Positions 26,626 through 26,759 of a stretch of 64,000 nt of DNA are shown in pieces (position 1 is the first letter of the stretch; every line of letters starts with the position of its first letter). The notes under the pieces were generated by a model that did not search any database, had not been told where the DNA came from, and saw only the letters and a list, made by a program, of their open reading frames with translations. A program made the position numbers and the translations under genes. Source of the DNA: the human T2T-CHM13v2.0 reference genome, Homo sapiens; the NCBI GenBank assembly GCA_009914755.4, contig CP068257.2:24800001-24864000 (forward strand), read 5' to 3'.

Positions 26626-26759
26626 TTATTTCCTTGCGTTTCCAGGATAAGGAGGGGGTGGAGAACGCTGTGCTGGACCCTGTGGGGTGGGGGAGTATGG
26701 AGGAGGCAAGTCTGCACAGTATTCCATCTCGTGGTCGTGACCGTAGGGTGGTGGTCCTG
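26626..26759 (-). CDS. CYYR1: Terminal coding exon (coding part incl. TAA stop) encoding a proline-rich cytoplasmic tail with three PPPY motifs; probable CYYR1 last exon, 3' UTR continues to lower coordinates
   Basis: Minus strand reads ...ttctcttccccttctttttcag|CAGGACCACCACCCTAC...GGAAACGCAAGGAAATAA. It has a strong acceptor and is open to a TAA stop at 26626-26628. With the split codon g|ca from exon 38396 the junction reads ...[47 protein letters not shown]. There are three PPxY motifs. The poly(A) site was not determined; several TTTATT (AATAAA on minus) candidates lie at 25.4-26.2 kb. Confidence 0.8.

What the first reader, a model, noticed from the sequence alone, without database searches (positions are those of the whole stretch)
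26626..26759. Cytoplasmic tail carries three PPxY motifs, a predicted WW-domain/NEDD4-family docking module
Seen: the tail reads [43 protein letters not shown], with three PPPY motifs within 40 residues, each followed by G/S/P. Established knowledge: PPxY is the canonical ligand of group-I WW domains (NEDD4/ITCH/WWP E3 ligases, YAP, WWOX). Small single-pass proteins with multiple PPxY motifs (NDFIP1/2, LITAF, PMEPA1, LDLRAD4, Shisa5, VOPP1) act as adaptors or activators for NEDD4-family ligases or as WWOX partners. Inference: this product is likely an E3-ligase adaptor or endosomal sorting cargo.
Basis: partly seen in the sequence, partly recalled or inferred. Interest (0 to 1): 0.5.

Follow-up and report, generated by a model that had tools for sequence, protein, structure and literature searches.

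The report
CYYR1 tail: three known PPxY motifs
This is the last coding exon of the human gene CYYR1, and its three PPPY motifs are real and conserved from sharks to humans, but a 2024 paper already showed that they dock the ubiquitin ligases WWP1, WWP2 and ITCH, so the finding is correct and not new.

Summary
On the minus strand, 26759..26626 encodes (A)[43 protein letters not shown] followed by a stop codon. This is exon 4 of CYYR1. Exon 3, which holds the transmembrane helix, lies at 38553..38396. Together they are 100% identical to residues 60-154 of human CYYR1 (NP_443186.3 / Q96J86), and they hit Pfam PF10873 at E=3e-51.

The three PPPY motifs are not chance. Only 0.26% of composition-preserving shuffles give three. 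The whole window has 9 PPxY in 128,000 six-frame codons, and 3 of them are here. In 96 vertebrate tails the three tyrosines are 98%, 100% and 98% conserved, and most orthologues keep a 16-residue register.

The PPPY triplet has been in the literature since at least 2007, in a paper that cites the 2002 gene description. CYYR1 was later placed in the STMC6/Shisa-like group. Perron et al. (JBC 2024) showed that:
- the PPxY motifs bind the WW domains of WWP1 and WWP2, and ITCH more weakly, but not SMURF1 or SMURF2;
- binding triggers K63 autoubiquitination and lysosomal degradation of WWP1 through ANKRD13A;
- CYYR1 itself is ubiquitinated on K154.

I found no paper reporting a CYYR1-WWOX interaction. 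Verdict: already known, low interest.

The parts
26626..26628 (-). Stop codon TAA of CYYR1
   Evidence: Sequence and translation.
26629..26756 (-). Coding part of CYYR1 exon 4 in the major CAG- isoform. It encodes residues 112 (last two bases of the codon) to 154, the cytoplasmic tail.
   Evidence: tblastn gives 100% identity to residues 112-154 of human CYYR1. The full 154-aa sequence is NP_443186.3/Q96J86. Pfam PF10873.
26757..26762 (-). Tandem CAGCAG (NAGNAG) splice acceptor. Use of the upstream AG adds the CAG at 26759..26757 and inserts Ala112 just before PPPY-1.
   Evidence: Sequence. The published CAG+ primer #5 matches exactly at 26737. Described in PMC1863428.
26743..26754 (-). PPPY-1 (aa 113-116)
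   Evidence: P113, P114 and Y116 are 99%, 99% and 98% conserved. This is the deletion construct ΔPPxY-1, aa 113-116, in PMC11399591.
26695..26706 (-). PPPY-2 (aa 129-132), followed by the conserved (S/T)-P-T-P
   Evidence: P129 is 99%, P130 100% and Y132 100% conserved. ΔPPxY-2+3 abolishes WWP1/2 binding.
26647..26658 (-). PPPY-3 (aa 145-148), followed by the conserved P-G
   Evidence: P145 is 99%, P146 100% and Y148 98% conserved.
26629..26631 (-). Codon of the C-terminal Lys154, the published acceptor site for WWP1/WWP2 ubiquitination
   Evidence: 98% conserved and invariant in the 37-sequence set. K154R loses ubiquitination.
38396..38553 (-). CYYR1 exon 3: the last base of codon 59, then residues 60-111, then the first base of codon 112. 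It holds the transmembrane helix and the basic juxtamembrane stretch.
   Evidence: tblastn 100% identity. AG acceptor at 38555-38554 and GT donor at 38395-38394.
38466..38549 (-). Transmembrane segment (about aa 61-88, including the CICMCM cysteines). It is followed by K89, R92, R95 and R100, which places the PPxY tail in the cytosol.
   Evidence: Kyte-Doolittle 19-residue windows score 2.4-2.75. The AlphaFold2 model has a helix at residues 62-91 with pLDDT 81-95 and a tail with no secondary structure at pLDDT 50-68.

Best explanation
The region is the last coding exon of human CYYR1, a small single-pass membrane protein with a signal peptide, a Cys/Tyr-rich luminal domain, a transmembrane helix and a short cytosolic tail. 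The tail is disordered and presents three PPPY short linear motifs in a fixed 16-residue register. These motifs bind, multivalently, the tandem WW domains of the WWP1/WWP2/ITCH subgroup of NEDD4-family HECT ligases at the late-endosome membrane. Binding relieves the ligase's autoinhibition. The ligase then builds K63 chains on itself and ubiquitinates CYYR1 at its C-terminal Lys154. ANKRD13A reads the K63 chains and routes WWP1 to the lysosome, which lowers WWP1 levels.

Shown here: the gene's identity, its exon structure, the predicted topology, and the conservation and non-random nature of the motifs.

Taken from the literature: WW binding, ligase specificity, ubiquitination, endosomal location and lysosomal routing.

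Inferred: that the conserved 16-residue spacing reflects simultaneous engagement of several WW domains.
For: Identity:
- tblastn gives 100% identity to residues 60-154.
- The exact 154-aa sequence is NP_443186.3/Q96J86, Homo sapiens.
- PF10873 scores 174 bits against a cut-off of 31.
- All 120 listed homologues carry PF10873, and those that carry a source name are vertebrate CYYR1.
- A published human primer matches exactly.

Motifs:
- 89 of 95 canonical tails carry three PPxY and 6 carry two.
- The tyrosines are 98%, 100% and 98% conserved.
- All 12 motif residues are invariant in the shark-to-human alignment.
- The spacing is 16/16 residues in 71 of 89 orthologues.
- The shuffle test gives p = 0.0026, and three of the window's nine PPxY lie here.

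Topology and disorder: hydropathy and basic residues after the helix; AlphaFold2 model.

Mechanism: PMC11399591.
Against: - Nothing in the sequence contradicts this explanation.
- The mechanism rests on one laboratory's study, much of it done by over-expression in HEK293 and MDA-MB-231 cells.
- Depleting CYYR1 had no significant effect on WWP2 levels.
- A 2026 paper links CYYR1's tumour-suppressive effect to a non-WW ligase, TRIM21, and does not map the interaction to the PPxY motifs. The WWP1 route may therefore not be the only function, or the main one.
- Mouse CYYR1 expressed in Drosophila neurons gave no Commissureless-like phenotype.
- Exons 1-2 are outside the window, so the luminal domain could not be examined here.
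Confidence: 0.88

Rival explanations
1. Classical cargo adaptor, like NDFIP, Shisa or WBP1L. The luminal Cys-rich domain or the transmembrane segment captures another membrane protein, and the PPxY tail brings a NEDD4-family ligase to ubiquitinate that cargo for lysosomal sorting. On this view, degradation of WWP1 itself is a side effect of activating it.
For: - CYYR1 is grouped with the STMC6/Shisa-like proteins. Its relative WBP1L/OPAL1 is an adaptor of WWP1, WWP2, ITCH and NEDD4L for CXCR4.
- The JBC authors explicitly do not exclude this.
- CYYR1 was reported as a hit in a yeast screen for human genes that affect plasma-membrane protein trafficking.
- The luminal and transmembrane cysteines are highly conserved.
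Against: - No cargo has been identified.
- No Robo-related phenotype appeared in flies.
- The Pfam WBP-1 model matches only at E = 0.68, below threshold.
Confidence: 0.3
2. Self-sorting signal. The PPxY motifs serve mainly to get CYYR1 itself ubiquitinated on K154 and sorted into multivesicular bodies or exosomes, so CYYR1 is cargo rather than regulator.
For: - K154 is 98% conserved and is always the last residue.
- WWP1 and WWP2 ubiquitinate K154 in a PPxY-dependent manner.
Against: - Depleting WWP1 and WWP2 did not stabilise endogenous CYYR1.
- The K154R mutant still induces WWP1 ubiquitination and degradation, and does so even more strongly.
Confidence: 0.15
3. The motifs chiefly engage WW proteins that are not ligases, such as WWOX, YAP/TAZ, MAGI or BAG3, for example by sequestering them at endosomes.
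For: From general knowledge, PPxY is the generic ligand of group-I WW domains, so such binding is biochemically plausible.
Against: - WWP1, WWP2 and ITCH were the only NEDD4-family ligases in the GFP-CYYR1 interactome as described in the text. I did not inspect the hit list for WW proteins outside that family.
- No paper in the library links CYYR1 to WWOX. Three papers hold both terms, each mentions WWOX once, and I did not open them.
Confidence: 0.08
4. The motifs are a by-product of a proline- and tyrosine-rich, low-complexity tail and have no specific function.
For: The tail is 33% proline. 34% of shuffles give at least one PPxY.
Against: - Three motifs arise in only 0.26% of shuffles.
- All 12 motif residues are invariant from sharks to humans, while the residues between the motifs vary.
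- Deletion mutants lose binding and function.
Confidence: 0.01

Closest known systems
CYYR1 itself (human Q96J86; Pfam PF10873), as characterised by Perron et al., J Biol Chem 2024 (PMC11399591)
   Same: Residues 60-154 are identical. The three PPxY sit at aa 113-116, 129-132 and 145-148 and the lysine at 154, exactly the residues mutated in that study.
   Different: Nothing. This is the same gene.
Other mammalian STMC6/Shisa-like PY-motif proteins: WBP1, WBP1L/OPAL1, VOPP1, TMEM92
   Same: All are small single-pass proteins with a Cys-rich luminal domain and several cytosolic PPxY motifs. WBP1L recruits WWP1, WWP2, ITCH and NEDD4L.
   Different: They are separate Pfam families. The WBP-1 model matches only at E = 0.68. 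WBP1L acts at the plasma membrane as a cargo adaptor for CXCR4, whereas CYYR1 is reported at late endosomes driving degradation of the ligase itself.
NDFIP1/NDFIP2
   Same: Endosomal or Golgi membrane proteins whose multiple PPxY/LPxY motifs bind WW domains, release HECT autoinhibition and promote autoubiquitination.
   Different: NDFIPs have three transmembrane helices and an N-terminal cytosolic PY region (general knowledge). There is no sequence relationship, and no NDFIP family appeared in the Pfam scan. They prefer NEDD4, NEDD4L, ITCH and WWP2, and bind WWP1 less.
Commissureless / PRRG4 / yeast Rcr1-2 PY-motif trafficking regulators
   Same: Short single-pass proteins with cytosolic PPxY/LPxY motifs that bind Nedd4/Rsp5-type ligases. 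CYYR1 was tested alongside them as a candidate.
   Different: CYYR1 expression in the fly nerve cord gave no Comm-like phenotype. Comm lacks the luminal cysteine pattern.

Membership tests
CYYR1 (Pfam PF10873; human Q96J86) | Match to the family profile above the curated cut-off | tested here: met
   174 bits against a cut-off of 31, E = 3.4e-51. Profile positions 53-149 of 149 are covered by the 95 residues encoded in the window.
CYYR1 (Pfam PF10873; human Q96J86) | Sequence identity to the human reference protein | tested here: met
   100% identity over residues 60-154. The reference sequence is confirmed as NP_443186.3/Q96J86.
CYYR1 (Pfam PF10873; human Q96J86) | Signal peptide and central Cys/Tyr-rich domain with the CCSYYAY box | not testable with these tools
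   These are encoded by exons 1-2, which are not in the 64-kb window. They are present in the orthologues aligned.
CYYR1 (Pfam PF10873; human Q96J86) | Single transmembrane helix followed by a C-terminal proline-rich region with three PPPY | tested here: met
   Hydropathy, AlphaFold2 helix at residues 62-91, three PPPY.
CYYR1 (Pfam PF10873; human Q96J86) | Four-exon gene with a CAGCAG acceptor at intron 3/exon 4 (hominid feature) | tested here: met
   Exon 3 and exon 4 have canonical AG/GT boundaries, and CAGCAG is present. This agrees with PMC1863428. Exons 1-2 were not seen.
PPxY-type activators/adaptors of NEDD4-family HECT ligases (a functional class) | One or more [LP]PxY motifs in a cytosol-facing, accessible region | tested here: met
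   Three PPPY lie downstream of the transmembrane helix and a basic stretch. The tail is predicted to be unstructured.
PPxY-type activators/adaptors of NEDD4-family HECT ligases (a functional class) | Direct PPxY-dependent binding to WW domains | not testable with these tools
   Reported experimentally for WWP1, WWP2 and ITCH (PMC11399591). No solved structure contains this tail.
PPxY-type activators/adaptors of NEDD4-family HECT ligases (a functional class) | Stimulation of ligase (auto)ubiquitination | not testable with these tools
   Reported: K63 autoubiquitination of WWP1, dependent on PPxY and on the catalytic cysteine.
STMC6 / Shisa-like superfamily | Six conserved luminal cysteines (C*C*CC*CC pattern) ahead of a single transmembrane helix | not testable with these tools
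   The luminal domain is outside the window. The assignment is taken from the literature. The only cross-family signal here is a sub-threshold WBP-1 hit at E = 0.68.
NDFIP1/2 | Sequence membership in the NDFIP family, with three transmembrane helices | tested here: not met
   No NDFIP Pfam hit at E <= 1. Only one hydrophobic segment is present. CYYR1 works like an NDFIP but is not a member.

The most novel reading that the evidence does not exclude
The tail may be more than three interchangeable PPxY motifs. It may be a fixed-geometry, switchable template matched to the four-WW array of WWP1, WWP2 and ITCH. The features that suggest this are all conserved and none has a published explanation:
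- a 16/16-residue register in 71 of 89 orthologues;
- the unexplained E121-M122 pair between motifs 1 and 2, 97% conserved;
- the (S/T)-P-T-P directly after PPPY-2;
- P-G after PPPY-3.

On this reading, proline-directed or tyrosine phosphorylation would act as an on/off switch. In hominoids, the NAGNAG-encoded Ala112 insertion would tune motif 1. The 25 of the 120 listed homologues that are predicted to lack exon 4 would be natural dominant-negative forms.
Probability: 0.15. Interest if true: 0.35.

Novelty: already known. Interest (0 to 1): 0.1.

Why it matters
The finding matters little as a discovery. The motifs, their conservation and their WW-domain partners are all published. It does show that the first-stage reader can recognise a spliced human exon and infer the right biochemistry from sequence alone.

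CYYR1 is one of few known negative regulators of the oncogenic ligase WWP1, and its loss correlates with poor prognosis in breast and lung cancer.

These questions remain open:
- which WW domain binds which motif;
- why the 16-residue register and the E-M pair are conserved;
- whether a cargo exists;
- how the TRIM21 route relates to the tail.

Tried and rejected
- WWOX link: a literature search for CYYR1 plus WWOX found three papers. Each mentions WWOX once, none names either gene in its title or abstract, and I did not open them. I found no evidence for the WWOX idea.
- A broader search for CYYR1 with NEDD4, ITCH, WWP2, YAP1 or 'WW domain' was unspecific. Among the 20 papers listed, only the JBC 2024 paper contains CYYR1.
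- A PDB sequence search with the 43-aa tail gave no hit at E <= 10, so there is no solved complex to compare with.
- Pei & Grishin 2012, the paper that defined STMC6, is not held in the library. The STMC6 assignment is therefore second-hand.
- The Pfam WBP-1 match is only E = 0.68. That is not evidence of family membership.
- An Rfam gathering scan of the whole window found nothing.
- I looked for exons 1-2 in the window by tblastn and they are absent.
- Chance or low-complexity origin was considered and rejected on the shuffle test and on conservation.
- No fold search was run. The AlphaFold2 model (pTM 0.30) is a single helix plus a disordered tail, so structure matches would be meaningless.

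Full report
**Observation.** The finding lies on the minus strand. Reading 26808..26626 in reverse complement gives ...[46 protein letters not shown]. A polypyrimidine tract and a tandem acceptor, ttctttttCAGCAG, precede GACCACCACCC. The stop codon TAA is at 26628..26626. The three PPPY motifs start at 26754, 26706 and 26658.

**What it is.** A tblastn of the human CYYR1 protein, which I first recalled from memory, against the window gave two perfect matches. Residues 60-112 map to 38552..38394 and residues 112-154 to 26757..26629. No match was found to residues 1-59.

Exon 3 runs from 38553 to 38396, with AG at 38555-38554 and GT at 38395-38394. It ends on the first base of codon 112. Exon 4 begins at 26756 in the major isoform, or at 26759 if the upstream AG is used.

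This CAGCAG 'subtle splicing' adds Ala112 just before PPPY-1. It was described in 2007 and reported then only for Homo and Pan (PMC1863428). That paper's CAG+ primer matches the window exactly at 26737.

The 95 residues encoded in the window hit Pfam PF10873 (CYYR1) at E = 3.4e-51, 174 bits against a cut-off of 31. The window therefore holds exons 3 and 4 of human CYYR1 and the intron of about 11.6 kb between them. Exons 1-2 lie beyond the window.

**Anatomy.** Residues 61-88 ([28 protein letters not shown]) form a strongly hydrophobic segment, with Kyte-Doolittle 19-residue windows scoring 2.4-2.75. They are followed by K89, R92, R95 and R100. By the positive-inside rule (general knowledge), this puts the tail in the cytosol.

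An AlphaFold2 model built on a 37-sequence alignment gives one helix at residues 62-91 with pLDDT 81-95. The tail has no secondary structure, with pLDDT 50-68. That fits short linear motifs in a disordered tail.

**More than chance.**
- The tail is proline-rich (14 P and 4 Y in 43 residues). Even so, only 0.26% of one million shuffles give three PPxY.
- The six-frame translation of the whole window contains 9 PPxY in about 128,000 codons. Three sit here, in one frame.

A homologue search returned 137 proteins. The 120 listed all carry PF10873, and the named ones range from sharks and rays through ray-finned fishes, amphibians, reptiles, birds, a monotreme and placental mammals.

- Of 95 with the canonical tail, 89 have three PPxY and 6 have two. 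Three of those six keep a related SPPY, LPPY or LPY in place of the missing motif, and three have lost the tyrosine or its context.
- Column by column over 96 tails, P113 and P114 are 99% conserved and Y116 98%. P129 is 99%, and P130 and Y132 are 100%. P145 is 99%, P146 100% and Y148 98%. The residues between the motifs vary freely.
- In a 37-sequence shark-to-human alignment all twelve motif residues are invariant, as are G150 and K154.
- The start-to-start spacing is 16 and 16 residues in 71 of the 89 three-motif proteins.

**Mechanism, from the literature.** The 2007 paper already states that the C-terminus consists of 'three repeated PPPY motifs', citing the 2002 gene description. A 2017 paper lists CYYR1, with its three PPxY, as a member of the STMC6/Shisa-like family of short trafficking proteins. 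It tested mouse CYYR1 in flies and saw no Comm-like effect (PMC5578492).

Perron et al. 2024 (PMC11399591) then reported the following:
- A WWP1-bait yeast two-hybrid screen recovers CYYR1.
- CYYR1 co-precipitates with WWP1, WWP2 and, more weakly, ITCH, but not with SMURF1 or SMURF2.
- Endogenous complexes are seen in MDA-MB-468 cells.
- The WW domains alone suffice for binding.
- Single PPxY deletions (aa 113-116, 129-132 or 145-148) have little effect, while pairs, mainly 2+3, abolish binding.
- CYYR1 triggers PPxY-dependent, catalytic-cysteine-dependent K63 autoubiquitination of WWP1.
- WWP1 is then degraded in lysosomes through the ubiquitin-interacting-motif (UIM) protein ANKRD13A.
- CYYR1 co-localises with Rab7A on late endosomes.
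- WWP1 and WWP2 ubiquitinate CYYR1 on K154.
- PPxY-dependent growth suppression is seen in breast-cancer cells.

The residue numbers in that paper coincide exactly with the window's translation.

A 2026 paper adds a TRIM21-HMMR route in lung adenocarcinoma. It did not map this to the tail and leaves the topology open (PMC13654864).

**Rivals.**
- A true cargo-adaptor role, as for the relative WBP1L/OPAL1 or for NDFIPs, is not excluded. The authors say so themselves, but no cargo is known.
- A pure self-sorting role is weakened, because K154R still drives WWP1 degradation and depleting the ligases does not stabilise CYYR1.
- Partnership with WWOX or YAP has no support that I could find. The published text names no WW protein other than WWP1, WWP2 and ITCH in the interactome, though I did not inspect its hit table.
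- Chance is refuted by conservation.

**Comparison and membership.** This is CYYR1 itself. The profile, identity, transmembrane helix plus three PPPY, and CAGCAG acceptor tests were all met. The luminal Cys/Tyr-rich domain is outside the window and could not be checked.

It works like NDFIP1/2 and WBP1L as a membrane-anchored, multivalent PPxY activator of HECT ligases. It is not an NDFIP: there is no Pfam hit and only one hydrophobic segment. Its link to WBP-1 is sub-threshold here, at E = 0.68. No solved structure includes the tail.

**Verdict.** The novelty rating is 'already known'. The small unexplained residue is the conserved 16-residue register, the E121-M122 pair, the (S/T)PTP after motif 2, and the isoforms that lack exon 4. 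These support a modest novel reading only. Interest is 0.1.

Noticed in passing
window 26757..26762 (minus strand): A tandem CAGCAG (NAGNAG) acceptor lies directly ahead of PPPY-1. The 2007 paper reported it only in Homo and Pan. However, the gibbon protein P0001 (Symphalangus isoform X3) reads SSYPAGPPPY, the CAG+ form, so the tandem acceptor probably extends to gibbons.
   Followed up: partly
homologues P0090-P0120; window 38396 and downstream on the minus strand: 25 of the 120 listed CYYR1 homologues diverge exactly after exon 3 (...SSYP) and carry no PPxY. They are predicted alternative last exons or read-through products. In the window, read-through of the exon-3 donor would give ...SSYPGEQNC*. 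Such forms would be membrane-anchored but unable to bind WW domains.
   Followed up: partly
window 26737..26726 (codons 119-122) and 26694..26683 (codons 133-136), minus strand: Some residues outside the PPxY motifs are also conserved: E121-M122 at 97%, and (S/T)133-P134-T135-P136 after PPPY-2 at 96%, 85% and 82% for P134, T135 and P136. I found no published explanation for either. The second resembles proline-directed phosphorylation sites.
   Followed up: no
window 26742..26737 (codons 117-118) and 26637..26635 (codon 152), minus strand: The human tail carries several states that are rare among vertebrates. G117 and H118 are each 3% (most species have S and Y), G138 is 4% and A152 is 5%. The gibbon has Y118, so H118 is a recent change that removes a widely conserved tyrosine next to PPPY-1.
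   Followed up: no
window 17142..17585 (minus strand): A 147-aa ORF reads ...[21 protein letters not shown]...WNQPKCPSMIDWIEKMWHTMEYYAAIKKDEFMSFAGT. From memory it resembles the C-terminal end of LINE-1 ORF2p, so this is probably an L1 remnant downstream of CYYR1 exon 4.
   Followed up: no
window 9419..9469, 9993..10029, 34701..34781, 46356..46404, 62357..62430: Microsatellites: (TG)25, (CA)18, (CTAT)21 and (CTTC)12. There is also a T-rich stretch followed by GAAACAGAGTCTTGCCCTGTCAC, which looks like the end of an Alu element. The Rfam gathering scan of the whole window found no RNA family.
   Followed up: no
window 26579 and 26178..24044 (minus strand): Several AATAAA hexamers lie downstream of the stop codon. 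The first is only 47 nt after it, and others follow at about 0.45, 0.84, 1.0, 1.2, 1.9, 2.3 and 2.6 kb. This could fit the two CYYR1 mRNA species that the 2007 paper reports from Northern blots. The end of the 3' UTR was not determined.
   Followed up: no
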